DNA of 64,000 nt, taken from positions 116,161 through 180,160 of the forward strand of contig JBJCIZ010000282.1 in NCBI GenBank assembly GCA_051294375.1, given 5' to 3'. The number at the start of each line of letters is the position of its first letter. Position 1 is the stretch's first letter. The DNA comes from Paraspadella gotoi. Taxonomy: Eukaryota; Animalia; Chaetognatha. The notes under the pieces are model-generated. The model had not been told where the DNA came from. It made no database searches and worked only from the letters and a program-made list of their open reading frames with translations. Of this stretch, positions 10,851 through 62,829 are shown piece after piece. A program made the translations under genes and the position numbers.

Positions 10851-12038
10851 GTAAGTGTTCGTTTGAAGCGCCATATAACTTGGTGCAGCCTTTCTCAGTA
10901 GAGTGAGTCAAAAATTTGATTTGAGTACTTGCTCAAACGAAAATTTAAACATTTTTAGTCGGATCTGCTTATCAGCAGATTCCGACTCTATAATTCACTT
11001 TGTCGGTCTGTCGGTCCAACCCATAAACTTGTCGGTAAATCACTTTTATCATCTCAGAACATTGAATTATGATACATTACAAAACAATAATAATTTAATT
11101 AATAAATTAATTAATTTGATCCGAAATGTTTGTTTTTAAGTCTTTTCATCACTGACCAAGACAAAAGCAACGACGACGATGATGGCGACGACGACAATAA
11201 TGCCAATAAGGATTGACTTGATTGATGGATTAATTGATTAAATAATTAATTAATTTATAAAGAAATTGATTGATTGAATAATTAATTAATAGATAACTAA
11301 ATAAATTGTTTGATTGAATAAATAATTGATTGATTAATTGACCAATTAATTAATTATTTATCAAGTAATTGACTAATTGATTAATTAACTGATTAATTAT
11401 TTGATTATTTAATTATTACATCTTGCATTTACATTAAATATAAAAGAAAAAGAAGCATAATCAATTAGTGAAACAGATTTTTTGTTTTTTCCATTTAAAC
11501 ACATTTCGATTCCATCAAAACTTCATAGCCAGCTCAATCACACACTTCCCTACCCGCACACAAAATTTCATTCTAATCAATCCATCCAATCACGAGAAAT
11601 TGGTGTTTTTTGCTAAGGTGGGACGGACGTACGGACGGACATCGTTTTTTTGCATAATTTATCATAATTCGATGTTTTTACATGATATAAGTGAATGCCC
11701 GACAGGATTGGGGGGCTGATAAGCAGATCCAACTAAAAAACTAAAAAACTAAAAAAATAATGATGTCCATCTGTCTGTCAGTTTGTCTGTTTGTCTGTCT
11801 GAGTGTCTGTCCCATCTTAGCAATAAACTCCAATACTCAAGATTAGATGGATAGATTGGATTTACATCTTGTGTGTGGGTAGGAAAGTGTGTGATTGAGT
11901 TGGGTATAAAGTTTTGAGTTTAACTGAAAAAAAAACAACAAAAGTTACATTTATTTGATTTGCGGAGATTGGTGATTATTTGTTGTCCTTGGAGGGATGT
12001 TCTCCTTTCCTTTGAAGTTCCCTCCCTTATTGCCTATC

Positions 12039-13200
12039 TTTTTAGTCGGATCTGCTTATCAGCAGATCCCGGCTCCTATAATTCACTTTGCGTGTCGTCG
12101 TGTCCACCCCTCAATATTGTCGGGCACTAACTTATATCATGTCAGAACATCGGATTATGATGAATTATGCAAAAAAAATGATGTCCGTCCGTCCGTCTGT
12201 CCGTCCGTCCCACCTTAGCAAAAAACACCAATTACTCGTGATTGTTGGATGGATTGGAATGAAATTTTGTGTGTGGGTAGGGAAGTGTGTGGTTGAGCTG
12301 TATATGAAGTTTCGATGGAATCGTCCGAGTGGAAATGAGTTTAAATGGAAAAAATAAAAAATAAATTTCACTATTTGAACACAATTACTCAAGAGGTAGG
12401 GCGATTGACTTAAAACTTTGTATTTGCATAGGAAAGTGTGTGATTGAGCTGAAATCAAGTTTCGATGGAATCGTTTGAGTGGAAATGAGTTAAAATGGAA
12501 AAAAACAAAAAAACTGTTTCACTAATTGATTATGCTTCTTTTTTCCTTTTATATATTAAATGTAAATGAAGGATGTATTAATAAATCAAATAATTAATCA
12601 GTTAATTAATCAATTAGTCAATTAATTAATCAGTCAATCAATCGTGCATCCGTCCCATCTGAGCAAAAAGATTAATAACTCGTGATTGGCTGGTTGGATT
12701 GGAATAAAGTTTGTGTGTGGGTAGGACAATGTGACATGAAGCTGGATATAAAGTTTCGATGGAATCGTGGGAGTGGAAATGAGTTTAAATGGAAAAAACA
12801 TAAGTTGCATTTACTAAAATCTTTTTACTTATTTAACCAATAAATAAATATCTATTTATCATAATTGGATGAATAGATTAGTTGAAATTTTGTGTGTGGT
12901 AGGAAAGTGTTGACGAACTTGATACAAGTTTCGGTGGAAACGTAACGAGTGGAAATGAGTTTAAATAAAAAAAATATGAGTCACATTTACTTGAATCTTT
13001 TTGTTTTCACGATCTTGTTAGTCCTGTAATGTTACTTATTTAACCCATAATTACTCGAATTAATAGATTAAAAAGAAAGTGTGTGAAGAAGCTAGATATA
13101 AAGTTTTGACGGAATTGTGCCTGTGGAAATCAGTTTAAATGGAGAAAAACATAATTCACATTTTCTTGAATCTTTTTTATTTATGATTACTAATAAATGT
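12039..13200 (+). mobile_element. HINE/DINE-1-like (Helentron-associated) non-autonomous repeat
   Basis: Starts in a T-run with the palindrome AGTCGGATCTGCT-TATC-AGCAGATCCCGGCT, has a (GTCC)n microsatellite and internal repeated blocks. Other copies or pieces at 1-127, ~10953-11740, ~14170-14608, ~40188-40280, 45622-47153 and 55276-59265. Confidence 0.7.
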
Positions 13201-13756
13201 TTTAATTAATTAATTATTGAAAAAAGATACAATTTAAAAAAATTATGCAAGTTGAAAAAAATTATGCAAGTTGAAAAATTATGCAAGTTGAAATTATGCA
13301 ATTGAAAAAATGATGCAAGTTAAAATAATATCGTATCATATTAAAATAACTAAATAAATGTAAAGAAAAATTTTTAGAGACCCTTCAGACATATGGCTAT
13401 CAGATTCCTGAATTTTTTGAAGTTTATTGTAAAATCACAACATATGTTAAATGCCTTGACATTGTATTGAAGTTGAAAATCCCTTTATTTTATATATAAA
13501 AATTGCGTCAAAAATATTTTCTCGAGCGGACCAGTACATTTGAATCAAATGGTTTGATGTCAAAATGATGGTTATTTGTCAAGAGAAAAAAAATGCGAGC
13601 CCTTCAGACGTAACAGAATCGGAATCGAGTGTTTTTACATCTATTTTTTACCTGAATTTTTCCAAGGGGCGTTGACATTATTTGGTAGTCAGATTTTAAC
13701 GAAAATCTCCATTGAAAAAGTCTTCCTCAATTTCTAAGAACGACGTAGACTCCTAC

Positions 13757-21503: not shown

Positions 21504-21689
<186 letters not shown>

Positions 21690-21829
21690 TAAGTTCAGGA
21701 GTGAAGTGAAAGTTTGAAATCAAAATGTACCTAAAAGTAAAGAAGCCAATTTAATTAAAGTTTGTTTCCTTTGTTTTAGTTGTTACAAACCTTAATTAAA
21801 TAATTATACATTAGTATTGACTTTACATT

Positions 21830-22115
21830 TGTGGATAAGGCGCTACGTGGGCTGAAGATGACTGTCCGTAATCTCTATAACCCCCTCTAGCAGCAATGGA
21901 ATGGGTTCCTGGGCTTGGAACCAGGCTCGAGGGTTTGCCATGCCCCCAAGGCAGCTTACGGCCGTCCTGACGCTTCCCGCAGGGTAGGTACCGGGTTGGG
22001 ATTGAACCCGGTACCTAGAGGTCATGAGCTGATGGCTTTACTCAATGAGCCACCGGGTCACAACTGAAAGTGTCATGATTCTAGGCGGGGTGAACCTAGG
22101 CAATGCCCGACTACA
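21830..22115 (-). mobile_element. ~290-bp TG...CA solo-LTR-like element containing a tRNA-like Pol III cassette
   Basis: Minus strand TGTAGTCGGG...TTATCCACA with a 4-bp TSD (CATT at 21826-21829 and 22116-22119). Internal A-box TGGCTCATTGAG and B-box GGTTCAATCC. Second copy at 30217-30513. Confidence 0.7.
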
Positions 22116-22316
22116 CATTCTTATACAAAGATCGCGCCAATTAAATTGTAATATATTTTATACAATAAAATTTTTTCTCAATTAAATGGCTCTTTTTATA
22201 AGATAGTGTTGCTATCATATGGAAAAATGTTGTTAAACCGTGTTGTTAAACCGAAAGAATTTGTTTTTAGTTCTGCTCTTTAAGTTGTGAATGTTCACAA
22301 TGCTTATAATTCATAT

Positions 22317-22600: not shown

Positions 22601-25600
22601 CCCTTCACCAAACTCGCCAACCTCCATCTGACTTGGGCACGCAGAGAATGGGCGAGGACCAGGAACTCTTCGATCTCTTGGCGATGCCGAGCGCTACCAT
22701 CTTCTCCAGCTCGGCTTTGGCGAAAGCCAATTTGTCTGGATGAAGGCGCCGGGCTTGGGCTTGGCATGGGCGGCCATAAGTTGGAATGTGGTGGTGCACT
22801 CCATGCTTGGGCTCCTTTAGCTTGAAGGGTGGTGTGGAGAGTGAGGGGTACTTGTCGAGGAGTTGGTAAAAAATATCCTCATTCCGTCATCAAAGTTGAC
22901 ATGAGATGGAGCAGACCCGCAGGTGACTGCACAGGGGATTGTCGAGTAGTCTCGAAGGTCCAAGAGCAAGCTGTCTCAATGGTTCGGAGCGAGTTAGTAT
23001 TCTCCAAGGAAGTCGGCTCCAAGAATGCTTTGAGTGATATCCACGATGAGTATGTCGAATGGGAAGATTCTTGGGCCAAGAATTACCCTTCTATGTGCCA
23101 CTTCGTAACATGCTATCAGGCTACCATTTGCTGCTTGAAGCTGCACCCCGGTTGGCCCTGCTGCTCGTTGCTCCGGTGTTGGGGGGATTAGTGAAAGTAA
23201 TGCCCCGCCATTGATTAACCAATGATGTCCGTCGCTGGCGTCGACGACATGCAGGAGGAAAGAGTCTGGGGAGTCGGCATTTGAGCGGGGCACAGCGTCC
23301 ACCTGCGCTGCCCCGCTGGTCCGTTTCCCGTCTTCGCATCTTTCTTTTTCAAGAAATCAGCTCTGCAGGCGCAGCAGCGCTCGCACTTGAGAGCTGAGTA
23401 ACCAAACTTAAGGCCTGGGATCATTCAAACAAGAATTGCATAAAGCTTTGTACAATCTATTATTATGTCAAAGAAAGTGTATTCCCTTCACGTTTCAAAA
23501 AAAAAAACTATATTTGATTAAGGTTCAGCTTCAAGAGGCAACTAAAAATCGGGCAATTTTTTTATCAGTAAACCTTAAAAATTTCATCCAACACGGTAAA
23601 GTCATTTTTAAACGCAAATTTTTTATTTTTCTTTTAATTAACAGCACCTACCTCAGTGTAATGCTAACAACTAAAACCAAGTCATTCCAATTATGTTATA
23701 GAAGTAATTAATGATGAAAACATAAACGTTTATGTAGACGAGAGAGCAGAACGCTTATATAGGATGTCTATTATCATTTTATTACAAAAAAGAATGATTA
23801 AAAATGTAAAATTTAAAGACATTCATCCACTGCAACTGAAGTAGGGTCCACTTTGATAACAACCCTCAATGGTGCCATAGACTGCCACAGATTCACCAGA
23901 CGGACCAGCCTCATGCTCTGCTTTTGACATTTAGTTTCTGTTCCCCAGGTTTCAAAACTGGTTCAAAACAAGACTGAGAAAAAAATAAATAAATACTTTG
24001 CAGCATTCCTCCTTGTTTACTGACTGCTTTCCCCCAGCCACAGCCATTTGTTAATAAAAAAAATTGTACAAAATTTGGATAAAACTTTAAAGATCGGTAA
24101 AGCAATCATTTAAACTAGAAATGAAAATAGATTTCGGAAAAGCATATCATTTTAAAGTTCTTTTGCTCGGACTTTCAGTTTTGTAAAATCTACAGAAAAA
24201 AAAAATAAATAAATAACAAAAAGAGTTGGAGACTAAAACCGTTTTAAATAAAAAATAAACTAAAATTAATTTTTTTATTAAGTATGGAATGGGAGAAAAT
24301 TCTATGAGAGGGATTTTGAAAAAATGTTACTAGTTTTCAAGATATTTAGAATTTAATGCCAAAATTTTCTTATTCTTTTTTTTTTCTTATGAAGATAAGT
24401 GAATTTGAAAAATCCCTTCTCATAGAAGTTGGGACCCTTGTCCTCAAGTAAATTTTTTGTTAAAATTTCATGAAAATCCGCTTAGCCCGTTTGGGCCGCA
24501 ACTCTTCGAAAGGTTTCTTTTTATTTTATATAGTTATATAAAATTCGAAAAAAACAGCAATGGATTCGAAGAGAAGATAAAGGAATACATTTTCAGATCA
24601 TCTGGACCTTCTACTTTCCGAATATAAGCTTTTTTTTAATCCTAATTATAACTTTTTGGCCGTGATCCCAGGCCTTAAATTTTACATAAATTTACTTGAG
24701 GACAAGGGTCCCAATTCTATGAGAGGGATTTTCCAAATTCACAATTCTTTCATAAGAAAAAAAAAAAGAATAAGAAAATTTTGGCATTAAATTCTAAATA
24801 TCTTGAAAACTAGTAACATTTTCCAAATCCCTCTCATAGAATTTCTCCCCACCTTTCCATACTTAAAAAAAATAATTTTAGTTTATTTTTATTTCAAACG
24901 GTTTTAGCTCCAAACTCTTTTTTTGTTTATTTATTTATTATTTTTTTTTCTGTTAGATTTTACAGAACTGAAAGTCAAGCAAAGAACTTTAAAATCGTTA
25001 CACTTTTCCGAAATCTATTTTCATTTCTAGTTTAAATGATGGCTTTACCAATCTTTAAAGTTTTATCCAAATTTTGTTACAATTTTTTTTTAAATTAAAA
25101 ATGGCTGTGGGCTGGGGAAAGCACAAGGAGGAATGCTGCAAGTGTTTATTTATTTTTTTTCTCAGTCTTGTTTTAACCAGTTTTGACCTGGGAACAGAAA
25201 CTAAATGTCAAAAGCAGAGCATGAGGCTGTGTCTGTCTGTGGAATCCTGTGGCAGTCTATGGCACCATTAGGGTTGTTATCAAAGTGGACCCACTTCAGA
25301 TGCCAGGGGACCAAATGTCTTTGAATTTTACAATTTTACAATTTTTAATCATTCTTTTTTGTAATAAAATGATAATAGACATCCTTATATAAGCGTTCTG
25401 CTCTCTCTCTACATAAACGTTTATGTTTTCATCATTAATATATTCTATAACATAATTGGAATGACTTGGTTTTAGTTGTTAGTATTACACTGAGGTAGGT
25501 GCTGTTTAATTGAAAAAAAAAAATTAAAAATTTGCGTTTAAAAATGACTTTACCGTGTTGGATGAAATTTTTAAGTTTTTACTGATAAAAAAATTGCCCG

Positions 25601-26549
25601 ATTTTTAGTTGCCTCTTGAAGCTGAACCTTAATCAAATTTAGAGGTTTTTTTTTTTGAAACATGAAGGGAATACACTTGTCTTTTGACATAATAATAAAT
25701 TGTACAAAGCTTTATGCAAATCTTGTTTGAATGATCCCAGGCCTTAAGGTGGTAGCGGCAAATCTGCTTCAGTTTCTGATTGGATGGTCGGGAGTTGGTG
25801 GACGGGCCGCTTGACAGGCGGGAGCTGTTTGCCAATCCACTTGGAAAAGTCGATCTCCAGTTGCCTGTCGATGAGCGCCTGCGATCGTTGCGCTGGCTTC
25901 CTACGGCGTTAATTTCTGCTTCGCCGTCGCTATTGGTTCCCTGGTCGTTGACGAGCTGTTCAAGGAGCAGCCAATTGTGGACGGCCATCTGGGTCGAAAA
26001 ACTTGTCAGCCTCGTTGGCCAACTCTGAAGCGGTCATGGAATCAATTTTTCCCTCGAGCAAGCGCCTAATTTCAATGGGGAGGCCTCTGACGACTGTCTC
26101 CTTCCGATCCGATGGTCCGATGATCCGATGGTCACAGCCTTGATTTTCTCTTCTAAGCGAGCAAAATGCTGCGACGGGCAGAGGCCATCACGGCCAAAAC
26201 CGTCGAGGATGGACGCCAGTTGACGTGGAGTAGTGCCATACTCTTTTTTAAGGTACTGGACGAATTCATTCCAGCGAGCTTTGGTTTGCTCGCTGTAAAG
26301 AAAGGCGTTTATGCGCGGGTTTGCATTGACGTCGATTTTTGACTCCAAATGGGCGAATTTTTCTTTTGAATCGCGGATGTTAGCTCGCACGTAGGCCGCC
26401 TCAACCCTTCGAAGCCAAATGTCAATATTTTTTTAATCAAAGGCGGGCAGTTCAGGCTTCTTCTTCTTTTCAAGGGCGGCGAGAGCGATGGCGAGGGCCG
26501 TACAAAGGGCTTCCGTCTCGCTGGAGGCGGAGGCAAAAGCGGTCGCCAT
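22601..26549 (-). mobile_element. Degraded Ty3/Gypsy element (CsRN1/Kabuki-like gag-PR-RT start)
   Basis: gag LPAFD*KNIDIWLRRVEAAY; CHCC knuckle ICRYHLKFGYSALKC, rebuilt across the insertion; protease WLINGGALLSLIP...ILGADFL; RT start ARRLHPDKL...SSWSSPILCVPKSDGGWR. Confidence 0.85.
23412..25743. mobile_element. Two inverted Kolobok-like copies inserted at one TTAA in the Gypsy gag
   Basis: TTAA at 23408-23411 and 25744-25747. A complete reverse copy at 23412-24674 is followed by a truncated forward copy. Confidence 0.8.
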
Positions 26550-28090
26550 GTCCCCGTTGACGTGTGCAATAGAGTGGAGCACTCAAGAATAAAAAAATTA
26601 TTTGAATGATCGAACAATGATATTTAGATGTGAGATAGTATGATTAACTAGTACAAAAAATATTTTGTTCATATTATCTCGGGAACAGAATAGTAAAATA
26701 TAATATATTTGTAGCCATTGTATTAATCCTTTCAGCTTCGTTGAGTTTAGAGATTTAAGCAAAGTTCGAAAATAAGTTCAACGATTTTATTTGTGTACGG
26801 ACATGTTTCAAACTTTGCTTAAATATATTTGTAGTAATATCCTTATAAAATAGTAAATTTTGTTTTCAAGCGCCCTGTCCCTTCTTAACTCAGTACGACC
26901 ACCGGGGCTAGAACCGGACCTTTGGGTTGGGAGCGCGAATGACTTGCCTCTGGCACCAATGGCGAGATGAACGGTGGTGGATTTTACGATAACGAGATTA
27001 TTCTGAGAATAAAATGCGTGATGTGGACCACGCAGGAGTCCAGATCAATTCTACTGAAACTAGATAGGCGTAGGAAATTTTTACGGTTCATAGAATTTCA
27101 GTTTCTCTATTCATCACACAGAAAACAGGTAAAACTAAAAGAATATTTTTAACGTTTACCTTTGAATCGCGCGGAATTTTAAGTTATCTTTTCTGCATTG
27201 ATTAATTTTCCTTAACAAATATTTTGTTTGCATACGGCAAATTTTCCAAGAGATGTGAAAGATCTTTCACACACTTTCACTGGAAATTCACGTATGCGCT
27301 GCCACAAACATCGGAGAACAGCTTTTTAAAAAATCCTTCAAAAGCGTTTAAACCTTGTTTTTTACTCTTTTTTTTTTACTTTTATCATAAATTTTAGATT
27401 TTCCGATATTCTGATGACTCTGGTTTGACGGCGACAACTATAGACCTTCATCAGGATGTTTCTATGAAGAAGTTTTTGACTAATTTTATTATGATCTGCA
27501 AAGAGTGAAAACTCTGCCAAAAAGTTCCTCTTTTTTCTTGTCTCTCTTGCTCTGATTTTTCACCTGTTACTTCATGTGCTTCTTTCTCCTCTTATTTCTT
27601 TCTTCCTACCATTTAAGGAAAATGCTCATGGGTTTTTGGATGAAATCAAAACAAGATTTATTCTGCAAATAAATGGTGATGGTGAAGACACAGGAGTCGC
27701 AGATCAATTTCTACTGAAACTAAGGAAGCTTAGGTCCTATTTTATTATCTAAGGAAGAGGATCGAAGGCAGCAGAAGTCATTTTTTACATATCATTGTTT
27801 TTGCAAGCTGATTTGGTTCGAATCCTGAATTCTGGCCTTTGACCAATCGACTGATTCCTGCGATTCCAGATCTGGGAGATCTTCCGATCCTTTGATCCGA
27901 TTCTTGCTTTGGGTATGTTGATTTTCTTAGTGGACTGCATACCTAGCAATGACCTTGAATTTTGAATTCAAGGTTTAAGAAATAAACCAATATCGATATT
28001 TTAATAGATTTTTTACCCCGTTTTATGTGTGATGCTCCTGATGGTGGCTTGGTGAAGTATTCCTAATTTAATCTCGCCGTTGATTAATTA

Positions 28091-28758
28091 TGTTTGGACT
28101 AAAACCCACCAACCGTTCATCAGCGGCCCATTTGGTGGCCGGATGGCAAGTCATTTCGCCTCTCCCAACCCAAAGGTCCGGGGTTCTAGCCAGTGGTCGT
28201 TCTGTGCAGTTTTAAGAGGACGGGGCGCTAACCCGCCTGTAACATTGTGTTACACCTGATCCGAAGTCAGTGGACTGCTTATATTGACGGTTTCTATCAC
28301 TAACTCATAACAATTAATTACTGTCTCTTCATTGGTGAGCCCGATTCCCGAACACACAGCCAACAACAACACTTTCAGGCGAATGCCTCACCGTGGCGAT
28401 GCACTTTCCGCCCTCAACACATCAGGACGACATGCCTCAACTTTTGTGACGCACTTCCACCAACAAACAACAATTCATGAAGAGACGCAAACAGACATCT
28501 TCCTACGGGAGGGGGGGATGTATGGTGCGACTAAACCCACCAACTCGTTCATTCAGCGGCCATGTGCCGAGGCAAGTCATTCGCCTCCCAACCAAAGGTC
28601 CGGGGTTTCTAGCCCGGTGGTTCGTCTGGCAGTTTAAGAGGGACGGGGCGCTTAACCCGCTGTTAAACATGGTGTTTACAGCCTGATCGAAGCTCAGGGA
28701 CTGCTTATTATTGAACGGTTCTATCACTAACTCATACACAATAATTACTGTCTCTTCA
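28091..28758 (+). mobile_element. TRIM (LTR-PBS-short internal-PPT-LTR)
   Basis: ~240-bp TG...CA direct repeats at 28091-28331 and ~28519-28758. PBS-like TGGTGAGCCCG, PPT GGGAGGGGGGGA, ~190-bp non-coding interior. Confidence 0.8.
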
Positions 28759-30216
28759 ATAATGGTCTAAGTCAGGTTAATGGGTCTGCCTGTAGGTTTT
28801 AGTCTCTGAGGTTCAAAAGGCGTAAGGTTTATTTTCCTTGGAAAACTATTTCAACTCTCTGCCAAGCGCCTTTAATCCTAAGTTTGTCTTGCTTATTTTT
28901 ATTATGGCTGCCTTAGACCTTTATCTTTTTCGCCTAACCTTTGATAAGCGTGTGCTTTAATTTGGGTTTGGTTTCTTTTCCTGCTTTTTCTTCTTTGATT
29001 AACAACAACGGGATAGTACAATTTTCATTTATTTACAGTATAGTATCATCTTCAGCAGATCCAATTCTAAATCTGTGGCGTTTGGAACTCGGGACCTTCC
29101 AAGGCCCAGGAGCTGGAAACTTCAGCCAGATTCGCCACTGGACTGTCAGTTAAAGATTTATTTACTATAAATAATTAATAACAATTCAACTACTCTTTCA
29201 AGGGGAGATTGCATTCTTTTTTATGATAAGACAAAGGAACACTGTTTAGCGCAAACTAATCATCTTGGTTATATTTGTCAGATTTTTTCATTGTTATTCC
29301 ATTAATCTTGGAAACCTTTTAAATCATCCAGAGAAAAATTAACTAGCCTTACTAAACTTGTTATTATGTTTTCTTTAATTGTTAATGCTTATTATAATTA
29401 TTTAATTAATTTAATATAGTTATGATTAGATATTAGATATTTTTAATTGCTTGTTCATGCCAAAGCTTTTGGAATATCTATATGGGCTTTGATTATTTGT
29501 ATTTAGGTACTATTTTTATAAAATGAACACAAGCAAGATTGTTTGGAAAAACTTTTAGCAAAGCTTGATAAACTTTTGTATGCCGCAGTGTGTCAACGGC
29601 ATCCGCCACTATCAGTCAGGGACTCTCAAGACCGATCTTCAACTGGCGCCATCCACATTTGGTCATCCGCGACGTCGGACCTATTCCACTTCTGAAAACA
29701 AGCCAAGCACCGATTAACATCGATGAGCGGACTCCCGCGAGACGCGGCAAACCTCTCGACTCCGCCACAAGCAAATCACAACGATCCTTTGATATTTTGG
29801 CCGCGCTGCCAGAAGCTCACTATTAAAATTCGGTTAACTAATTTTAGTCGGCGCCCTTCGCCGCGCCAACCTTCCGACTTCTCGCCCACAGCGCCGGATC
29901 CGCCGCGCCCTTGCACACTAGGGTGGAGTGATGAAGAGATTCTGAAGTGACTTGAACATTATTTTCTTTGCTGGGCCTATGGGACATATAATTAATGGAA
30001 TTTTTAAATCCTTTTAAAAATTTTTTTAGCATAACAGTTAGCCAAATTCAATTATTTATGTAGTAATATTCCTTATAAAATCGTTCAAATTTCAAAATAA
30101 TTTTTTTATTTTTTAGAAAACTTGATTTGGATTCGCTGTAATAAAACTAAGAAACTATAAAATATGATTTTAATGTTTAGGATCACAAAAAATGACTTAA
30201 AACGTTTTAACATATA

Positions 30217-30513
30217 TGTTTAGGTCGGGCATTGCCTAGGTTCACCCCGCCTCATAAGCATGACACCTTCAGTTCCTGACCGGTGGCTCATTGAGTAAAA
30301 GCCATCAGCTCATGACCACTAAGGTACCGGGTTCAATTCCTAACTTTGCGTACTACCCTGCGGGAAGGCCGTAGGACGCGCCGTAAGCCGCCTTGGGGCG
30401 TTGATCACCCCTCAAGCCTGGTTCAAGCTCCAGGACCCGTTCCATGGCTATAAAGGGTGTTAAAGAAAGTTACGAATAAGTTCATCTTCAGCCCACTTAG
30501 CGCCTTATCCACA
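30217..30513 (+). mobile_element. Second copy of the tRNA-cassette TG...CA element
   Basis: TG...TTATCCACA with TSD TATA (30213-30216 and 30514-30517). A- and B-boxes at ~30284-30340. Confidence 0.65.
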
Positions 30514-32449
30514 TATATAAGTTTCTACTACAGAGAATAAAAAAAGTCAGGAATTTTCACCTTTTTTCTTATTTTTAAACATTTGAAGATGACAGAATTT
30601 TTGATAACATGTGTTATATTTTTGATTCAACTTTTTTATGAAGGAATCTGAATCTTTATTAAAAGTTATGAAATTATTTTTTAAATTTCNNNNNNNNNNN
30701 NNNNNNNNNNNNNNAAAAAAATTATTTTGAAATTTGACGATTTTATAAGGATAAATAATAAATAATTAAATAATTGAATTTGCTATACTGTTATGCTAAA
30801 AAAATTTTTAAAAGGATTTAAAATTCATTAATTATATGTCCATAGGCAGCAAAAAAATAATGTTCAATCACTCAATCTCTTCATCACTCCACCCTAGTGT
30901 GCAAGGGCGCGGCGATCCGGCGCTGTGGGCGAGAAGTCGAAGGTTGGCGCGGCGAGGGCGCCGACTAAATTAGTTAACGAATTTTCAAGTGAGCTTCGGC
31001 CGCGGCCAAATATCAAAGGATCGTTGTGATTTGCTTGTTGGCGGAGTCGAGAGGTTTGCCGCGTCTCGCGGGAGTCGCTCATCGATGTAATCGGTGCTTG
31101 GCTTGTTTCAGAAGGTTGGAATAGGTCCGACGTCGCGGATGACCAATGTGGATGGCGCCAGTTGAAGATCGTCTTGAGAGTCTGACTGGAAGTGGCGATG
31201 ACGTTGACACACTTGGCGCATACAAAGTTTATCAAGCTTTGGCTAAAAGTTTTCCAAAACCAATCTTGCTTGGTTCATTTATAAAATAGTACCTTAATAA
31301 AATAATCAAAGCATATAGATATTCCAAAAGCTTTGGCTGACAAGCAATTAAAATATCTATATCTATCAATAACTATAATTAATTAATTAATAATTATAAT
31401 AAGCATTAACAATTAAAGGAAAACATAATAACAAGTTTAGTAAGGCTAGTTAATTTTTCTCTGGATGATTTAAAATGGTTTCCAAGCTTAATGGAATAAC
31501 AATGAAAAAATCTGACAAATATAACCAGATGATTAGTTTTGCCTAACAGTGTTCCTTTGTCTTATCATAACAAAAGATCAATTCCCTTGTAAAAGAGAAT
31601 TGTTATAATTATTTATAGTAAATAAAATCTTTAACTGACCCAGTGGCGAATCTGGCTGAGTTCCAGCTCCTGGGCTGGAAGGTCCCGAGTTCAAACCCAC
31701 AGATTTAGAATTGGATTCTGCTGAAGATAGTGAATGAGCACGTTGATCGGTACTGTTAAAGACATGAAATATGTGAGGTGTGTTGGTTGTTATAATCAAG
31801 AAGAAAAGGGTGAAAGAGCACACAACATTGACACGCTCTACTCCAAAGGTTTAGGCAAAAGGATAAGTGTCTAAGGCGCCCATAGATATAATAAGCTCAA
31901 AAAGATTTCTTACGGATTAACAGGTCTTAGCATTAAAGTTGAAAAGATGAAGTTTAACAATAGTGTAAATAACTACGGGACTTTGACTCAGGAGACTAAA
32001 ACTACAGGACAGACCCATTAACCTGACTTATGACATTATTGAAGAGACAGTAAGTTATTGTTATGAGTTAGTGATAGAACCGTTCAATATAAAGCAGTCC
32101 CTGAGCTTCGGATAGGCTGTAACACCATGTTACAGGCGGGTTAAGGCGCCCGTCCCTCTTAACTGCAGACAGAAGAGCCACCGGGCTAGACAGACCTTTG
32201 GTATTGGGCACGCGCACATGACTTGCCTCCGGACAATTGGCCGGCTGTGATTAGACACGGTTGGTGGGTTTTAGTCGACTCATATTTTGCAGCGAGTTCA
32301 ATTAAGGAATACTCTTCACAGATGCCCACCATCAAGGCGAGCATTCACGGCAATAAAACGGGGTAAAAAATCTATGTATCAAAATATCATCATTGGTATT
32401 ATTGTCTTTTAAACCTTGAATTCAAAATTCAAGTCATTGCTATGGATAG

Positions 32450-32755
32450 CATCGAAGAAAAAAACCTAACACAGCGAATCGGATCAAAGGATCGGAAGAT
32501 CTCCGAGAATTGGAATCAGAGGAATCATGATATGGTCAAAGGCGGAATCAGATTCGACAATCAGCTTGGCAAAACAATGAATTGTAAAAATGACTCTTGC
32601 CTTCGATCCTCTTCCTTAGATATAAATAAACTAGCTTCCTTAGTTTCAGTAGATTGATCTGGACTCCTGTGTGTGTCTCCATCACCATTTTATTTGCAGA
32701 ATAAATCTTGTTTTGATTTCATCCAAAAACCCATGAGTTTTAGCTCCGTAAAATG
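32450..32755 (+). mobile_element. Solo LTR type A within an older gag relic of the same family
   Basis: CATCG...AAATG, matching 61009-61305. The mirror copy is at ~27610-27940 on the minus strand. Sequence is noisy. Confidence 0.65.
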
Positions 32756-33354
32756 GTTGAGGATAAGAAAGATAAAGTAGTTGGTAGAACGAAGCACATG
32801 AGTAAGGTGAAAATCAGAGAAAGAGAGAAAGAAAAGAGACTTTTGGCAGAGTTTTCACTCTTTGCAGATCATAAAATTAGTCAAAAACTTCTTCATAGTA
32901 AACATCCTGATAAGGTATAGTTGTCGCCATCAAACCAGAGTCATCAGAATATTCGGAAAATCTAAAATTTATGATAAAAGTAAAAAAAAAAGAGTAAAAA
33001 CAGTTAAACGCTTTAAGGATTTTTAAAAAGACTGTTCTCATTTTGTGCACGCCATACCGTGAATTTCAGTAAAGTGGTGAAAGATCTTTACATCCTCTTG
33101 AATTTGCCGTATGCAAACAAAATATTTGTTTAAGGAAAATTAATCAAATGAAGAAAAGATAACTTAAATCGCGAATTCAAACGTGGTAAACGTTAAAAAT
33201 ATTCTTTTTAGGTTTTACTGTTTTCTGTGTGATGAATAGAAACTGAAATTTATGAACCGTAAAATTTCCTATCGCCTATCTAGTTTCAGTAGAATTGATC
33301 TGGACTCCTGCGTGTGTCTCACATCACCATTTTATTCTCAGAATAAATCTCGTT

Positions 33355-34080
33355 ATCGTAAAATCCACCAACCGTTCATCTGGGCGCATTTGGTGCCGTA
33401 GAGGCCAAGTCATTCTGCCTCCTCAACCAAAGGAGTCCGTGGGGTTTCTTAGCCCGGTTGTTCGTTTCGATCTGGGCAGTTAAGCAGCTTCGGGACAGGC
33501 GCGCTTTTGAAGACCTGCCTGGTATACACGGATGTTTGTCTGACACCTGAAATCCAGAAGCTCATGGGATCTGCTTTATATGGAACGAGGTTCTGTCTCA
33601 TTTAACATTATAACTAATTTCTATCTGTCTCTTCATTGGTGAGCCCGACTTTCCGAACACAACCAGCGACAACAACCACTTTCAGGCGACATGCCTCTCA
33701 ACCTGGCCAATGCCACTTTCCGCACAACAAACATCATCAGGCAACATGCTCTCAACTTGGTGACGAAACTTTCCACCAACAACAACCTCAATTCACTGAA
33801 GAGACGCAACAGACTTTCTTCCCTACGGGAGGGGGGGATGTGATTGGTGACTAAAATCCACCAACCGTTCATCAGCGGCCATTGGTGCCAGAGGCAAGTC
33901 ATTCGCCTTCCCAACCCAAAGGTCCAGGTTTCTAGCCCGGTGGTCGTTCTGGCAGTTTAAGAGGGACGCGGGCGTCTTAAACCACCTGTAACACGGTGTT
34001 ACAGCCTGATCCGAAGCTCAGGGACTGCTTATATGGAACGGTTCTGTCATTAACATATAACAATTATCACTGTCTCTTCA
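33355..34080 (+). mobile_element. TRIM copy inserted in the 5' LTR of element A
   Basis: LTR-TGGTGAGCCCG-internal-PPT-LTR (33839-34080) with a 5-bp TSD TCGTT at 33350-33354 and 34081-34085. Confidence 0.85.
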
Positions 34081-42681: not shown

Positions 42682-42747
42682 AATTGCGACGATCCTTATG
42701 CTCATTTTACTGCTCTCTCTCTCTCTCTTCTTTGCAATTGCAACGAT

Positions 42748-45310
42748 CACTCTTTGCAGATCATAAAATTGTCAAAAACTTCTTCATAGCAAACATCCTG
42801 ATAAGGTATAGTTGTCGCCGTCAAACCAGAGTCATCAGAATATTCGGAAAATCTCAAAATTTATGATAAAAGTAAAAAAAGAAGAGTAAAAACAGTTAAA
42901 CGCTTTAAGGATTTTTAAAAAAGACTGTTCTCATTTTGTGCAGGCCATACCGTGAATTTCAGTAAAGTGGTGAAAAGATCTTTACATCCTCTTGAATTTG
43001 CCGTAAGCGAACAAAATATTTGTTTAGGGAAAATTAATCAAAATTCCTTTAGATATTACCGTTTTATGCGTGATGATAGAAACTGAAATTCATGAACCGC
43101 CTTAGCCTTAGCCAGCTCGCAAAACGACAAAGGACGAGAAAGAGTTGCCCTCTTTACCAACTAAAGTGCAAGGGTCGTCACTGAAATCAAGGAACCAGCG
43201 CCACGTGATGACACTGGAAACGCACTATGCTGGGAAAAACAGTTATATCCTTGTCGTCATTGGCGGAAGCCCGGCAAGCTGCTTGTATGATACGGGGTCT
43301 CTATAAACACTATCCCAAGCAAATTTGTCGAGAAATGGGGCTTAGCTACTCAAATTTATCGCGGAAGAGCGCTAAAGCTTGAAACAGCAACAGGAACCAT
43401 CACGCTGACGGAGATGATAAATATCAGAATAATCAATATCAATTATAGAGTGGTGTGATGTTAAAAACTTAGTAGGCATCCTCCGTGGACTCGTGGAGTG
43501 TGAAAAGTTGTTAATTTTTCTCTTCCAATCAATGGGCGTAACCTGGCGTTAACAAACAGTACTGACCGAATCTAACGTGTAGCGACGAACTAACAAAAGA
43601 TCAGTGTTTATATAACGACGCGTATACGACTTCTCTTTACAAGTACCATTGGCTTTAACTATAATAATTCATTTTTATCCTTTTTACTCAAATAATTAAG
43701 AGTAATTTAAAAGTAATAAATAGTCCCTTTTTTATCTTTACAGACCACGCAGGAAGCCAAAATCGTTGTTAAAGAAAGCGGAAGTATTAACTGTGGAGGA
43801 TTGAATCCATTATTTTCATCCCATATGGACACAGTGGGTTACCGCACACTCAATGCTTACCCCCCATTGGGGTTTGGTTATCCTTTTGTTCCATCTATTC
43901 CTTCCCACTCAATATTTGGGGCTGCGCCTGGGAGTATCATCACTGGCTCTGGATTTGGATTTACTCATTCAGGATCACATGGGATACCTGCTGGATCAAA
44001 TTCTTCACCTGCTGCAGGTTTTATGTACAACATGTTCACGGTAGGGCAGAGAGGATGTGAAAGAAACAAAAAAGTGCCATCTCTGAAACCAATAAAATCT
44101 TAACGTATACCCATGAAACACTTAATATGGTAGGTCAGTAAATTCGATAAAGGCAGGATTTTTTTAAATTTTTAGAGAATTGACAAAGTTTTTGTTTACA
44201 ACGAATTTTATTTAAATTGAACAGACATGTTTCAACTTGCTTTACAAGCCTTCATCATCGTTTTGACAGTTTGATTGAAATTTTTGCATAAGAAGGGAGG
44301 AGAGAGAGATAGAGAGTAGGCTAAAAGTTTTCCAACAAAGTGGTGAGACAGAATAGTGGTCAGATGAGAGGACAGGGTAAGGTTGAGGACAGATTGAATA
44401 AGTTGTGAAAAAGAAGTGAACTTAGAGAGAGAGAGAGACAACAGGGATAAATAAATAATAATGATACATTGTGCAATGTACAACAAAGATAAATACTTTG
44501 AGAAAAAAAAACTAAAATTAGTTAAATTTAACAATTATCTAATGGATAAATAGTTAACTAGGGATAGAAAATGAAATATGAAATGAAATTGTAAAAATGT
44601 GAGAATTTTAAAGTGTTAAGTGATTATAAAGTGAAATTTAAAGAGTAAGAAAAAGCTCAAAATGAGCTGGTCCCCCTTGGTTTATGCAAATGAAGGGCAT
44701 GGACAACGGTGACGGGTCATTGGCGCGTCAATGGCTGAGAGGAGAGTGCGACTGAACCAATAAATTCTGCACCAGGGATTGTACCAGGCGGAAAAATTCC
44801 CAATGCCACTCTTTTTGTCTCTCTGACCTGATACACCTGCCGGCTGCCATCTTCTCGCCTGCTGGCAAGGCGGGCGATTGTCCATTCTTGCCGCTTTTGC
44901 GACAGGAATGATTGACTCCTCTCCTTCCTCCTGAAGCCATCGTTTTGGCGGCGCTCAGTCTACAGTGAGAGGGGCTGAGTTACTGCATTTGAAGGAGAGG
45001 CATCATTTGCCCATTGCCTGCGTAAGGGTCTCCACTTGTCTCGTTGAGTGGAGACAGGGGAATCATTGTGCAGGCGTGGTGGCAGCGGGGCCTCCACTAC
45101 GCTTTTGATAAGCAAATCATAGCTTGGAGGGAGATCAAATCGTCCTCCATCATGGTTCAAAGAGGGCTCGAGGGCTTTGATGTAGATTGCCTCTCTAATA
45201 CCTCTTGAGAACCAGTTTGGGTCATGGGACAGCATGAGACAATCTGATTCCCTGAACAGACGGCCTGTTTCTGCTGAATGCTCAGCTATTGTGGACAAGT
45301 AGTGACCTCG
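42748..45310 (+). repeat. Direct duplication of 61394-64000 (gag/PR relic, Sox terminal exon, Penelope fragment)
   Basis: Near-identical over ~2.6 kb apart from small indels; the match runs to the window end. Confidence 0.9.
43744..44103 (+). pseudogene. SoxB2: SoxB2 terminal exon, frameshifted copy
   Basis: Acceptor tttacAG at 43742-43743. Reads (R)PRRKPKSLLKK, then GCGGAAG versus GCGGGAAG in the second copy, giving AEVLTVED* with TGA at 43802-43804. May be a sequencing error. Confidence 0.7.
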
Positions 45311-45621: not shown

Positions 45622-46325
45622 TTTTTTAGTCGGATCTGCTTATCAGCAGATCCCGACTCTATAACTCACTTTTTCGGTCCGTCGGTCCGCCCCCTCAATA
45701 TTGTCGGGCACACACTTATATCATGTCAGAACATCGAATTATGATAAATTATGCAAAAAAATACTTCGGCGTTCCGTCCGTCCGTCCGTCCGTCCGTCCC
45801 ACCTTAGCAAAAAACTCCAATTACCCGTGATTGGATGGATGGATTGGTATGAATTTTGTGTGTGGGTAGGAAACTATTGTGATTGAGATGGATATGAAGT
45901 TTCGAGGGAATCGTGCGAGTGGAAATGGGTTTAAATGGAAAAAAAAATATATTTCACTATTTGAACGCCAATTGCTCATGAGTGGATAGTGCAATTGACT
46001 TGAAATTTTGTATGATGGTAGGAGAAGTGTGTGATTGAGCCGATATAAAGTTTCGATGGAATCGTGCGAGTGAAATGAGTTAAAATGGAAAAAACAAAAG
46101 TCATATTTACTTGAAGTATTTTTACTTAAATTTACTCATAATTATTTTGTTTATTAAAAATTGGATAGATAAATCGAATTGAATTTTGTGTGTGGGTAGG
46201 AAAGTATGTGATAAAGCTGGATAAAAATTTTTTTGATGGAATCGTAGGAGTGGAAAAGAGTTCAAATTAGAAAACCAAAAGACACATTTATTTGAATTTT
46301 TTAAGTTTCTCTCTCTCTCTCTCTC

Positions 46326-46356
<31 letters not shown>

Positions 46357-47153
46357 GTGATTTTGATTGACCAAATTATGCTAAATTGACACAAATCCAA
46401 ATTATGCCAGTTGACCAAATTCTGCAAGTTAATCAAGTTTGCAAGTTGACAAATTATGCTGTTGACAAATTATGCCAGTTGACCAAATTAGGCCAGTTGA
46501 TAAAATTATGCCAGTTAACCAAATTATGCCGGTTGACCAAATTATCTTAATTGATCAAATTATGTCAGTTGACCAAATTATGTCAGTTGACCAAATTATG
46601 TCAGTAGACCAAATTATGTCAGTTAACCAAATTATGTCATGTTGACCAAATTATGCAAGTTGATTAAATTATGCAAGTTGACCAAGATTAGCTTATTACC
46701 ACTTAATTATCGATAGACCTGGAATTTTGTATGTGAGTAGAAAAGTGTGTGATTGAACAGGAAACCAAGTTTCGATGGAATCTTTTGAGTGGAAATGAGT
46801 TTAAATGGAAAAAAACAAAAAACCTGTTTCACTAATTGATTATGCTTCTTTTTTCTTTTATATTAAATGTATATGCAGGATGTATTAATAAGTCAAATAA
46901 TTAATCAGTTAATTAATCAATTAGTCAATTAATTAATCAATAATTAATTAATCAGTCAATCAATACCAGCTCCAATAATCCGAATTTTGTGTGTGGGTAG
47001 GAAAGTGTGTGATAAAGCTGGATATAAAGTTTCGACGGAATCGTATTGAGTGGAAATGAGTTTAAGTGGAAAAAAACATAAGTCGCATTTACTAAAATCT
47101 TTTTACTTATTTTAACCAATAAGTACTCTAATTAATCATAATTGGATGGATAG
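45622..47153 (+). mobile_element. HINE/DINE-1-like copy with an internal tandem array, interrupted by LTR element B
   Basis: Same 5' palindrome and (GTCC)n as the other copies. Cut at ...GGATGGATAG by LTR B. Confidence 0.7.
46365..46685 (+). repeat. 18-bp tandem array GTTGACCAAATTATGYCA
   Basis: Head-to-tail units with no spacers. A related shorter array is at ~13240-13320. Confidence 0.9.
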
Positions 47154-50232: not shown

Positions 50233-51774
50233 TTGATTGGTAAATCTTTTCAGCCAAATCACACCGATATGTCAACGAAAACAAAAGACGCAACTTCTCA
50301 GTCTCAAAAAACTCGTAACAAAAATAAAAATTCAAGTAAAGATGCTTCTGATTCTAACTCAGAAAATCAAAACTCGCAAGACTGTGAAGTTACTGAGGTT
50401 TTACTGCCGGAGACTCGTCTTTTTCAAGAATTAGAAACACTCCAGCCTGAAAGAAAAGCAGCATTTGCACGACTCTTGGTGAACTCGGGCTACAAAATAA
50501 ACGAAAATGTTTTTGATAAAAAAATCTCTGAACAAGATAAAAACGATATTCATGACCTTCGAAAAACTGTAATTGTGTCGACAACCCTCCCACAAGAGAT
50601 CAGAAAATCTCGTCCAGGAGTGCTCTCTGTGGTAGACGAAGCTTTCCATGGCTCAGCCGAATTCGACGAATTAAAAATCACTCAGCGTGGAGACTTAATC
50701 ATACTCGCCAAGACTGATAAAGATTTTAACTCGCTTATGAAACCTGACAATTGGCGACATAGTAAATATGATTTCATTCCAAAGCTTAATCCACAAAACA
50801 CTGTCTCTCATTATGTTCTTATTAAAGGTATTGATCCTGCGTACTCAGAGGATGAAATCAAAACCGCTATGGTTTCAAAAGGATTTAGCCCAAGCTTCAT
50901 AAGAAGGCTCACAACTGGTTCGACAGGAGAACCGAGTTGGAATGTCAAGGTAACGCTCAATTCCCTGAAAGAAAAAGAATCAATCCTGAAAAACAAAATA
51001 AACATGTTTCATAAAGTCCATAATGTTACAGAATATTTTGTAAATAAAATACTACAATGTTATAAATGTCAAAAATATGGTCATGGCTCTAATGCTTGTC
51101 AACAAGAGATACAAATTTGTCTTCGTTGTGCAGGTCAACACTCTCACAAAAACTGTGATAGAAGCTTTTCAGACACTAAATGTGCTAACTGTGGTGGCCG
51201 CCATGCAGCTAATTCGAAATCCTGCCCTATTTACGAAGAGGCCTGCCGTATCCAAACCAAATCTTCCTCTGTTGCTGCTAATCTCACTCAGACAAAATCT
51301 TATGCCAATGCAATCCAAAATCAGGTCACTACTTCTTCCACTAGACTTCATGCAGAAGATTTAGAAAAGATTAGTCTTTGCGTTGTCCATGTTTTGCGTG
51401 AAATGGGAATAGGTACAGAAATACAGAAAGAAAATATTGTCTCGTCTATCAAAAGGACTGTGAATGAAATACAACATACAGTAGTAAATCAAAAACAGAA
51501 GACAAGTCTCTCAACTTCGTCAATTACAATTCCAAAAAATATAAATTCAACACAATCTTCTGAAAACGTACAAGGTGAGATGGAGATCCTCTTGTCAACC
51601 CAAGAGGTCATCTCTGATTGGGCAATGGATGAAGATTTTTCTCTATCTCAAGATCAAAGTCAAGCCAAAGAAAATGATTCTCAGTCCCAAAGCGGTCTTT
51701 TGAACCCAGAAAACCAAGGAAGGCACCAGCTGCTTTTAAGGAAAGGAAAACCTGGACGTCCTCCTAAAAACTGA
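50233..51774 (+). CDS. LINE ORF1 (gag-like, three CCHC zinc knuckles); probable ATG at 50269
   Basis: CYKCQKYGHGSNAC, CLRCAGQHSHKNC and CANCGGRHAANSKSC. Uninterrupted frame, typical of I/Jockey-group ORF1. Confidence 0.9.
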   Translation: MIGKSFQPNHTDMSTKTKDATSQSQKTRNKNKNSSKDASDSNSENQNSQDCEVTEVLLPETRLFQELETLQPERKAAFARLLVNSGYKINENVFDKKISEQDKNDIHDLRKTVIVSTTLPQEIRKSRPGVLSVVDEAFHGSAEFDELKITQRGDLIILAKTDKDFNSLMKPDNWRHSKYDFIPKLNPQNTVSHYVLIKGIDPAYSEDEIKTAMVSKGFSPSFIRRLTTGSTGEPSWNVKVTLNSLKEKESILKNKINMFHKVHNVTEYFVNKILQCYKCQKYGHGSNACQQEIQICLRCAGQHSHKNCDRSFSDTKCANCGGRHAANSKSCPIYEEACRIQTKSSSVAANLTQTKSYANAIQNQVTTSSTRLHAEDLEKISLCVVHVLREMGIGTEIQKENIVSSIKRTVNEIQHTVVNQKQKTSLSTSSITIPKNINSTQSSENVQGEMEILLSTQEVISDWAMDEDFSLSQDQSQAKENDSQSQSGLLNPENQGRHQLLLRKGKPGRPPKN

Positions 51775-51778
51775 TAAA

Positions 51779-53613
51779 ATGGCCTCCAAATCCTTGCCTG
51801 TTGCTGTCCTTCAGCTAAACACTAACGGTAGACCAACAAGACTTGTTGAACTTTTAAATCTAATAGAAAATCTAAACAAACAATATTCGTTATTTTTGGT
51901 GTTCAATGACATTAGATGCAGTTCAAAGGATCTATTTGTTTTGAAAAAATTTAAAACATTCATTAATGAATCAGTAACTTCGGCAGGAGGTGTAATGATC
52001 GCTACTCCCAGCCATCTTCCTGCTGCTGAGATTAAGTTTCACAATCAACCAAAAGAAAGTCTTATTGTCGAAACGCTGTTAAAAGATAATGAAAAATTCG
52101 TTCTATGCACGACATACAACCACCCAGGAGAACACTTACACGAATCTTTATTTCATGCTTTCAACAATTTTTCAAATAAACCTAATGTAGTCTCCAGTAT
52201 CCTAGTTGGCGATTTAAACTCTCCCCACTCTGAACTCTGCGGAAGAACAGACTCTCCACAAGGTGAACAACTCTTAAATTTTATATCTAAGTTTAATTTT
52301 ATACTGCTAAACAGTAATTTACCCACATTTATAAGTAAATCTACTGGTCTCACAAACACTCTAGACATCGCACTAACAGTATCAAAATTCTCTGATAAAA
52401 TTCTCTCATGTGCAAGCCTTGAAGACGTCGGCAGTGACCATCTTCCACTACTAATAACCACAAAAACCCAATCAATAAAAAAAGACATTTTAATAAACAA
52501 GACTAATTGGTCAGAATTTCGTAAATCTTGTGACAATAACTTACTAAATTTCACTACCGATCTCATCTCAAAAGATCAAGCAGATCTTGCTGTCAACAAA
52601 TTTACTGAAACATTGAAAAATGCTTTTACCCAAAATACCACTAGCAAAACTCACAAATCCTATAACTTCATTATTTCATCATCTGAATTAAAAAATCTAA
52701 TAAAAAGAAAAAGATTTCTTGCACGAAAAATTACAAAAGCTAGTAAATTAGGATTTACAAGTAATCCAATCTTGAAAGTCGAATTTAATTATCTATGTCG
52801 CAAAGTAAGGACATTGAATAAAAAATCCTTATGTGAGCACTATTTTAAAAAAGCAAATGGCATTTTAAATGAAAAAGACCCCGCAAAGAAATGGAAACTC
52901 ATAAATAACTTAACAAATCTTAAAACAATCTCTCCCCCAGATGCTATGCTCAAAAGACCTGATGGCACTCAGGCCGTTGACAACAAAAGCAATCTCAAAA
53001 TACACGCAGAAAACTTAAAATCAATTATGGGAAAATCACCAGTTCCTCCAGGAAATGAAGATTGGGTTAAAAAGGTCGAAAAACTAATAGACGAATTTTC
53101 ACACTTTCTTAAACCTGGCAATGGCTCAGTCATGGCCGATGTTGAATTTGAGAATTTTGTCAGAGATTCTTTAGACCCTCAAAATATTTATGAAACAATA
53201 AAATCTCTAAAAAGAATTTCTGCTCCAGGTCCAGATGGCATCACTCATAACATGCTAAAAAATTGCTCTAGCAATACAATTACTATATTAGCTTCCATTT
53301 ACAAATCATGTTTATTACTCGGTTATTTTCCAGACACGTGGAAAGTCGCCAACATTAGGGTAATCCCCAAAACAGGAAAAGATCCCACCAATCCACGAAA
53401 CTACCGACCTATCAGCCTCCTTTCAGTTCTTGGAAAATTACTTGAACGACTAATATTACCCGGGCTCATTAGCATGCTAGACAAACGAGGAAAACGGCGC
53501 ATACTGCAGTCTGGCTTCAAAAAAGGAAGGTCTGCACCGGAAAATATTATTCGCCTTGTCGAGGATGCTCATGCGGGTTTCAAGGCTAGAGGAGGAACTA
53601 TTCTCGTAACTCT
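51779..53613 (+). CDS. LINE ORF2, APE endonuclease + start of RT (truncated at the N gap)
   Basis: LQLNTNG, VGDLNSPH, LDIAL, GSDHLP; SAPGPDGI, FPDTWK, NYRPISLLSVLGKLLERLI, QSGFKKGRS. Confidence 0.92.
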
Positions 53614-53623
53614 NNNNNNNNNN

Positions 53624-62426: not shown

Positions 62427-62787
62427 ACCACGCAGGAAGCCAAAATCGTTGTTAAAGAAAGCGGGAAGTATTAACTGTGGAGGATTGAATCCATTATTTT
62501 CATCCCATATGGACACAGTGGGTTACCGCACACTCAATGCTTACCCCCCATTGGGGTTTGGTTATCCTTTTGTTCCATCTATTCCTTCCCACTCAATATT
62601 TGGGGCTGCGCCTGGGAGTATCATCACTGGCTCTGGATTTGGATTTACTCATTCAGGATCACATGGGATACCTGCTGGATCAAATTCTTCACCTGCTGCA
62701 GGTTTTATGTACAACATGTTCACGGTAGGGCAGAGAGGATGTGAAAGAAACAAAAAAGTGCCATCTCTGAAACCAATAAAATCTTAA
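62427..62787 (+). CDS. SoxB2: SoxB2 terminal exon, intact copy
   Basis: Acceptor tttacAG at 62425-62426. The phase-2 join gives YRPRRKPKSLLKK (group B2 signature), followed by a Gly/Ser/Pro/Phe-rich tail to TAA. A possible extra donor ACG|gtaggg is at 62725. Confidence 0.85.
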
Positions 62788-62829
62788 CGTATACCCATGA
62801 AACACTTAATATGGTAGGTCAGTAAAATT

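What the first reader, a model, noticed from the sequence alone, without database searches (positions are those of the whole stretch)
21830..22115. LTR-like element carrying an internal tRNA(CAT)-like Pol III cassette
Seen: two copies (here and 30217-30513) with TG...CA ends and different 4-bp TSDs (CATT; TATA) and no A-tail. About 50 bp inside is gacccgg-TGGCTCATTGAGTAAAGCCA-tcagctCATga...ccGGGTTCAATCCc. Established: SINEs start at the tRNA head and have variable TSDs, while Cassandra TRIMs carry 5S Pol III cassettes in their LTRs. Inference: an integrase-mobilised, tRNA-based analogue of Cassandra.
Basis: partly seen in the sequence, partly recalled or inferred. Interest (0 to 1): 0.7.

Follow-up and report, generated by a model that had tools for sequence, protein, structure and literature searches.

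The report
tRNA-bearing solo LTR family (Helenus-type)
Two copies of a common 290-base repeat that carries a decayed tRNA look-alike sit in an intron of an animal Sox gene; they are likely left-over ends of a small retrotransposon of the "Helenus" kind described in 2024, so probably a new family of a known kind rather than a new mechanism.

Summary
21830-22115 (286 bp, TSD CATT) and 30217-30513 (297 bp, TSD TATA) are inverted, 83%-identical copies with TG...CA ends and no tail. A box-A/box-B pair in tRNA register, with CAT at the anticodon position, starts 56-60 bp inside. It is degenerate: ARAGORN and Rfam do not call a tRNA. Public contigs show an abundant family: in run X1, 64 and 124 contigs leave the element exactly at its two ends into unrelated flanks. 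The proposed 'tRNA analogue of Cassandra' is already published as Helenus/TRIMp3 (Kojima 2024, PMC10886601): animal families make 4-bp TSDs, LTRs run 104-323 bp, and several are known from LTRs alone. No two-LTR copy with PBS and PPT was found, so TRIM status and Pol III transcription are inferred. The host is an animal with no close annotated relative found. This scan noted the same kind of element before on other DNA (planarian, Basidiobolus). Verdict: new member of a known kind.

The parts
21830..22115 (-). Copy 1: 286-bp TG...CA unit, probable solo LTR; strand given is that of the tRNA-like cassette
   Evidence: sharp family ends at 21830 and 22115 in public contigs
21826..21829 (+). Left target-site duplication CATT of copy 1
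22116..22119 (+). Right target-site duplication CATT of copy 1
21988..22059 (-). Degenerate tRNA-like cassette, 72 nt in canonical register (acceptor 5/7, D 3/4, anticodon stem 2/5, T stem 2/5 pairs)
   Evidence: no cloverleaf as MFE; not called by ARAGORN or Rfam
22041..22052 (-). Box A-like motif (TGGCT met; the YGG of most Helenus is replaced by TGAG)
   Evidence: motif definition from PMC10886601 section 3.5
22022..22028 (-). Anticodon-loop-like CTCATGA (CAT at positions 34-36)
21999..22008 (-). Box B-like motif GGTTCAATCC
30217..30513 (+). Copy 2: 297-bp TG...CA unit, probable solo LTR
30213..30216 (+). Left target-site duplication TATA of copy 2
30514..30517 (+). Right target-site duplication TATA of copy 2
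30277..30350 (+). tRNA-like cassette of copy 2 (box A 30284-30295, box B 30330-30339)
21504..21688 (+). Host context: HMG-box exon of a SoxB gene; both copies lie in the intron that follows, copy 1 starting 141 bp after the splice donor

Best explanation
The two copies are likely solo LTRs of a short non-autonomous LTR retrotransposon (a Helenus-type TRIM) whose LTR carries a decayed tRNA-derived segment predicted to act as an internal RNA polymerase III promoter. Shown: a multi-copy ~290-bp family with fixed TG...CA ends, 4-bp TSDs in both window copies, no tail, no TIRs, and an A/B-box cassette that no longer folds as a tRNA. Inferred: a parent of the form LTR-PBS-short internal part-PPT-LTR is transcribed by Pol III from the 5' LTR cassette (neither copy has a T4 stop on the cassette strand, so read-through is possible). 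It would be reverse-transcribed and integrated in trans by a Gypsy-type helper, giving the 4-bp TSD, and then reduced to one LTR by recombination between the LTRs, which keeps the TSD.
For: TG...CA ends and exact 4-bp TSDs in 2 of 2 copies. In the 4 runs, loose ends pile up exactly at 22115 (124, 119, 101, 22 contigs) and 21830 (64, 52, 41, 18) with flank agreement of only 0.39-0.45, i.e. fixed ends and unrelated flanks. At 96% likeness the summed contig depth peaks over the cassette (22023-22041) in 4 of 4 runs; none of the 31 variant rows falls in box A or B; between the two copies the A-to-B core is 53/57 identical against 197/246 elsewhere (Fisher p = 0.02). Helenus as published: animal TSD 4 bp, LTR 104-323 bp, non-functional tRNA, families known from solo LTRs alone (PMC10886601). 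Several animal Helenus LTRs begin TGTAG on the tRNA strand, as copy 1 does. The host carries broken Gypsy-like RT and integrase frames in this window.
Against: No two-LTR copy: no PBS or PPT next to either copy, and no end-to-start joint among the joints listed (15 of 79 shown; all 4). Box A lacks the YGG of most Helenus. A standard tRNA model does not detect the cassette. The depletion of family variants in the core is not significant (0 of 11 polymorphic sites, p = 0.13). No sequence likeness to a published Helenus family was found with 11 short motifs. The cassette lies in the 5' half with ~160 bp behind it, whereas in most published LTRs that I saw it lies near the 3' end (Helenus-1_MLe is an exception).
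Confidence: 0.7

Rival explanations
1. Solo LTRs of an ordinary, long (autonomous or large non-autonomous) Gypsy element whose LTR once took up a tRNA-derived SINE; the cassette would be a passenger and transcription would be by Pol II.
For: Ends and 4-bp TSDs fit any Gypsy solo LTR; the internal part was never seen, so its length is unknown.
Against: The core is better conserved than the rest between the copies (p = 0.02) and shows the depth peak at 96% likeness, which a passenger would not predict. The unit has no match to the Gypsy-like repeats of the window.
Confidence: 0.14
2. A unit that moves as a single LTR-like piece with no internal part (for example through tandem or circular one-LTR intermediates, or by cut-and-paste with a Gypsy-like or Ginger-like integrase that needs only the terminal bases).
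For: All junction classes seen lead into unrelated flanks, none into a shared internal sequence. Ginger2 also gives TGTNR ends and 4-bp TSDs at RTATAY sites (PMC2836005), and the site of copy 2 fits that pattern.
Against: Contigs collapse a shared internal part into a few records, so its absence from consensus rows proves little. Published Helenus families have LTR-to-internal ratios up to about 20:1 (Table S3). No TIR: 8 of the first 30 terminal bases match against 40-270 bp in Ginger. The site of copy 1 is not RTATAY.
Confidence: 0.1
3. An ordinary tRNA-derived SINE with chance TG/CA ends and short TSDs.
For: A/B boxes, 290 bp, high copy number and no T4 on the cassette strand are SINE-like.
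Against: 56-60 bp of leader before the tRNA-like part, no A-rich or simple-repeat tail, fixed ends at both sides in many contigs, and a 4-bp TSD in 2 of 2 copies.
Confidence: 0.05

Closest known systems
Helenus (tRNA-bearing TRIM, 'TRIMp3'), animal families; Kojima 2024, PMC10886601 (main text read whole; supplement parts 1, 10, 11 of 11 and motif searches)
   Same: tRNA-like segment with boxes A and B inside a TG...CA LTR-sized unit; not a working tRNA; 4-bp TSD; 286-297 bp lies within the 104-323 bp range of animal LTRs; LTR-only families are included there.
   Different: No internal part (PBS, PPT) seen here; box A lacks YGG; cassette in the 5' half; no motif match to the published consensus sequences; the host seems not to be one of the listed species (inferred).
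Cassandra and Ajax (5S-bearing TRIMs), as described in PMC10886601
   Same: Small-RNA-derived Pol III promoter inside an LTR of a non-autonomous element.
   Different: They carry 5S sequence (Ajax with 5-bp TSD); Rfam finds no 5S match here and the motifs are tRNA-type A/B boxes.
Ginger1/Ginger2 DNA transposons; PMC2836005 (passages)
   Same: TGTNR ends and 4-bp TSDs.
   Different: They have 40-270 bp TIRs; this unit has none.
tRNA-derived SINEs (SINE2)
   Same: A/B-box cassette, length, abundance.
   Different: Here the cassette is internal, both ends are fixed, there is no tail and the TSD is 4 bp.

Membership tests
Helenus (animal) | tRNA-derived segment inside the LTR with box A TRGCY and box B GGTTC | tested here: met
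   TGGCT and GGTTC at 44-47 nt spacing in 2 of 2 copies, canonical register
Helenus (animal) | YGG in box A (stated for most, not all, families) | tested here: not met
   TGAG in both copies; the paper says 'most'
Helenus (animal) | LTR with fixed TG...CA ends, about 100-320 bp | tested here: met
   286 and 297 bp; sharp ends in 4 of 4 runs; range from Table S1
Helenus (animal) | 4-bp target-site duplication | tested here: met
   2 of 2 window copies; other copies could not be checked
Helenus (animal) | Short full-length form: two LTRs around a non-coding internal part with PBS and PPT | tested here: inconclusive
   None next to the window copies, no end-to-start joint among those listed; no genome held
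Helenus (animal) | Cassette not a functional tRNA | tested here: met
   ARAGORN 0 genes, no Rfam tRNA hit at E<=10, broken stems
Helenus (animal) | Transcription by RNA polymerase III (predicted, not validated, for Helenus itself) | not testable with these tools
   No raw RNA reads on offer
Helenus (animal) | Mobilisation by a Gypsy helper sharing the PBS | not testable with these tools
   Needs the internal part; broken RT and integrase frames are in the window
tRNA-derived SINE | Starts at the tRNA head; 3' tail; variable TSD | tested here: not met
   56-60 bp leader, no tail, 4-bp TSD twice, fixed ends
Ginger DNA transposon (non-autonomous) | Terminal inverted repeats of 40-270 bp | tested here: not met
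   3-4 of the first 5 and 8 of the first 30 bases match; definition from PMC2836005
Cassandra / Ajax | 5S rRNA-derived segment in the LTR | tested here: not met
   No 5S hit in Rfam scans at E<=10

The most novel reading that the evidence does not exclude
The family has no internal part at all and spreads as a single 290-bp LTR-like unit: a Pol III transcript of one LTR that is copied and integrated by a borrowed Gypsy-type integrase without a PBS or PPT, a hybrid between a SINE and an LTR element.
Probability: 0.08. Interest if true: 0.7.

Novelty: new member of a known kind. Interest (0 to 1): 0.24.

Why it matters
Modestly. It would add one more independent, abundant family and probably a new animal host to the Helenus/TRIMp3 group, supporting repeated capture of tRNA promoters by LTR elements. 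No Helenus has been shown to be transcribed by Pol III (PMC10886601, section 4.1), and an abundant family is a convenient test case. Only the single-unit reading (probability about 0.08) would be a new mechanism.

Tried and rejected
No whole genome is held, so no genome-wide TSD or paired-copy count. Collection scans: viral contigs 0 hits; metagenome contigs 1 hit, L001, which matches only 20-23 bases of the element and was rejected as chance; prokaryote genomes 0 hits. No RNA holder listed; run X9 is only guessed to be RNA and is kept as contigs, so it says nothing on expression. Summed contig depth (about 1e6 against about 100 in the flanks) is not a copy number and was not used as one. A joint 22113 to 21995 with 16 letters between (runs X1 and X4) holds a G-run that looks like a PPT or a tRNA-Pro PBS, but a similar G-run lies inside the element itself, so it may be a nested, deleted copy: left undecided. 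Weak Rfam hits to Plastid-ycf2 in both copies (15-16 bits, E 1.3-1.7, far below the 65.7 cut-off) fall on the strand opposite the cassette; from recall that model may be an antisense plastid tRNA(CAU), but the scores are at chance level. Whole-element folding is not consistent (z -2.04 and -0.15). No internal direct repeats, so the unit is not itself a mini-TRIM with two short LTRs. No empty-site joint for copy 1 was listed in any of the 8 runs laid; its flanks were absent from X8 and X9 and partial in X6 and X7, which proves nothing. Host: the HMG exon is 95-98% identical to SoxB of many phyla, the last Sox exon found no relative, the LINE ORF2 found two unnamed relatives at 29%; the phylum stays open. 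Paper searches showed no report of this family, but without a host name they cannot exclude one, and Repbase/Dfam could not be searched.

Full report
Observation. Copy 1 runs 21830-22115 (286 bp) between two CATT; copy 2 runs 30217-30513 (297 bp) between two TATA. Both start TGT and end ACA. They are inverted to each other, 83.1% identical over 296 columns, and are the only 2 full-length matches in the window by blastn and nhmmer. They are 53-56% G+C against 21-32% in their flanks. Of duplication lengths 2-8 bp only 4 bp fits both copies; a 4-mer match by chance runs at 0.76% window-wide and 0.8-1.4% locally. There is no tail and no terminal inverted repeat beyond 3-4 of the first 5 bases (8 of 30).

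The cassette. It reads on the minus strand of copy 1 and the plus strand of copy 2. A box-A-like TGGCTCATTGAG and a box-B-like GGTTCAAT(C/T)C lie 44-47 nt apart. Such a pair arose in 3 of 5000 and 6 of 5000 shuffles; the patterns were recalled and the A-box was loosened after seeing the sequence, and the same scan found 2 other such places in the window. Counted from the A box, copy 1 gives a 72-nt canonical tRNA register with CTCATGA as the anticodon loop; the stems pair 5/7 (acceptor), 3/4 (D), 2/5 (anticodon) and 2/5 (T), and in copy 2 4/7, 3/4, 2/5 and 3/5. Neither folds as a cloverleaf. ARAGORN finds 0 genes and Rfam gives no tRNA or 5S hit at E<=10. So it is a decayed tRNA derivative with promoter boxes; 'tRNA(CAT)' is a positional reading only. 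Neither copy has a T4 run on the cassette strand (not tested against chance).

The family. Nine runs of one coded organism hold the stretch. At 80% likeness 5847, 5621, 2326 and 489 contigs were laid in X1, X4, X5 and X9. Of the 24 loose-end rows shown (1020 hidden), the largest in each run is at 22115 (124, 119, 101, 22 contigs) and 21830 follows closely (64, 52, 41, 18), with flank agreement of 0.39-0.45. Internal rows at 21907, 21992 and 22095 (17-52 contigs, agreement 0.49-0.77) continue in element-like sequence and look like indel subfamilies; one of them has a GATCGATCC form of box B, which still fits the recalled box-B consensus. The family therefore has at least a hundred-odd distinct insertions with fixed ends. 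At 96% likeness summed depth peaks over the cassette in 4 of 4 further runs. Between the two window copies the A-to-B core is 53/57 identical against 197/246 elsewhere (p = 0.02; p = 0.06 if the 5' acceptor strand is included). Against this: the lack of family-polymorphic sites in the core is not significant (0 of 11, p = 0.13).

What was not found. No PBS or PPT flanks either copy. No contig joint from the end of one unit to the start of the next was listed (15 of 79 joints shown, 4 of 4). One joint with a 16-letter G-rich insert is ambiguous. No whole genome is held and scans of three collections gave 0, 1 (chance) and 0 hits. A full-length element is thus neither shown nor excluded, since contigs collapse shared sequence.

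Context. Both copies lie in the second intron of a SoxB gene: first exon ending 10850, HMG exon 21504-21688, last exon from 62427, with a near-identical duplicate near 43.7 kb. The intron is full of broken retroelements, including Gypsy-like RT and integrase frames and a LINE. The host is an animal; no close annotated relative was found.

Comparison with what is known. [quoted passage not shown] Animal families occur in six phyla, make 4-bp TSDs, are inferred to use Gypsy helpers, have LTRs of 104-323 bp, and mostly do not encode a working tRNA; several families are listed without an internal part; Pol III use is not validated. This element meets the LTR-level features except the YGG of box A. 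Eleven short motifs found no related family in Data S1: nine had 0 hits, one hit a wasp internal region once, and CTCATGA occurs 35 times, mostly in fungal cassettes. As Helenus is defined by structure and thought to have several origins, this suggests an independent family. Ginger transposons share the ends and TSD length but need long TIRs (PMC2836005, passages). Troyka has CG ends and 3-bp TSDs (PMC12440569, abstract). Two later papers only cite Helenus (PMC13570524 and PMC12859917, passages); PMC10946416 was seen in listings only. Earlier notes of this scan describe the same kind in a planarian and in Basidiobolus; none matches this sequence, and I had reached Helenus before reading them.

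Verdict. A real, abundant repeat family that works most likely like a Helenus solo LTR (0.7). Membership rests on LTR-level features; the full-length form is untested. New member of a known kind; interest 0.24.

Noticed in passing
window 10543-62787: SoxB gene (last exon begins PRRKPKSLLKK, SoxB2-like by recall) split by two introns of about 10.6 kb and 40.7 kb, one inside the HMG box; many bilaterian SoxB genes are intronless (recalled).
   Followed up: partly
window 42747-45310 and 61393-64000: A 2.6-kb duplicate at 97% identity (long stretches 100%) that includes the last Sox exon; either a recent duplication or an assembly artefact.
   Followed up: no
window 26919-33433: Copy 2 sits in the spacer of a large imperfect inverted arrangement (28528-30107 with 30715-32277, 84%; 26919-28331 with 32040-33433, 82%), next to a 25-base N gap. 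Other long inverted pairs lie at 23407-25748 and 56936-58491, suggesting fold-back elements.
   Followed up: partly
window 31630-31720 (+) and its mirror near 29048-29230 (-): A second, unrelated A-box/B-box tRNA-like segment within the arms of that inverted arrangement; possibly another SINE or tRNA-bearing element.
   Followed up: partly
window 59947-60849: Frame with a Pfam Monjiviricetes_fusion hit (E 2.9e-09) downstream of broken Gypsy-like frames: an env-bearing retroelement remnant.
   Followed up: no
window 50233-53797: LINE with a 513-aa ORF1 and an endonuclease-RT ORF2 whose closest database relatives are only 29% identical.
   Followed up: partly
window 11784-13219, 45623-47153, 55276-55978, 58722-59131: A family with internal tandem subrepeats of about 150-170 bp and a TCCG microsatellite, resembling Helentron/DINE-type elements by recall.
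   Followed up: no
window 21985-22017: A 13-bp perfect hairpin encloses the box-B loop in copy 1; its outer arms persist in a contig subfamily but are decayed in copy 2.
   Followed up: partly
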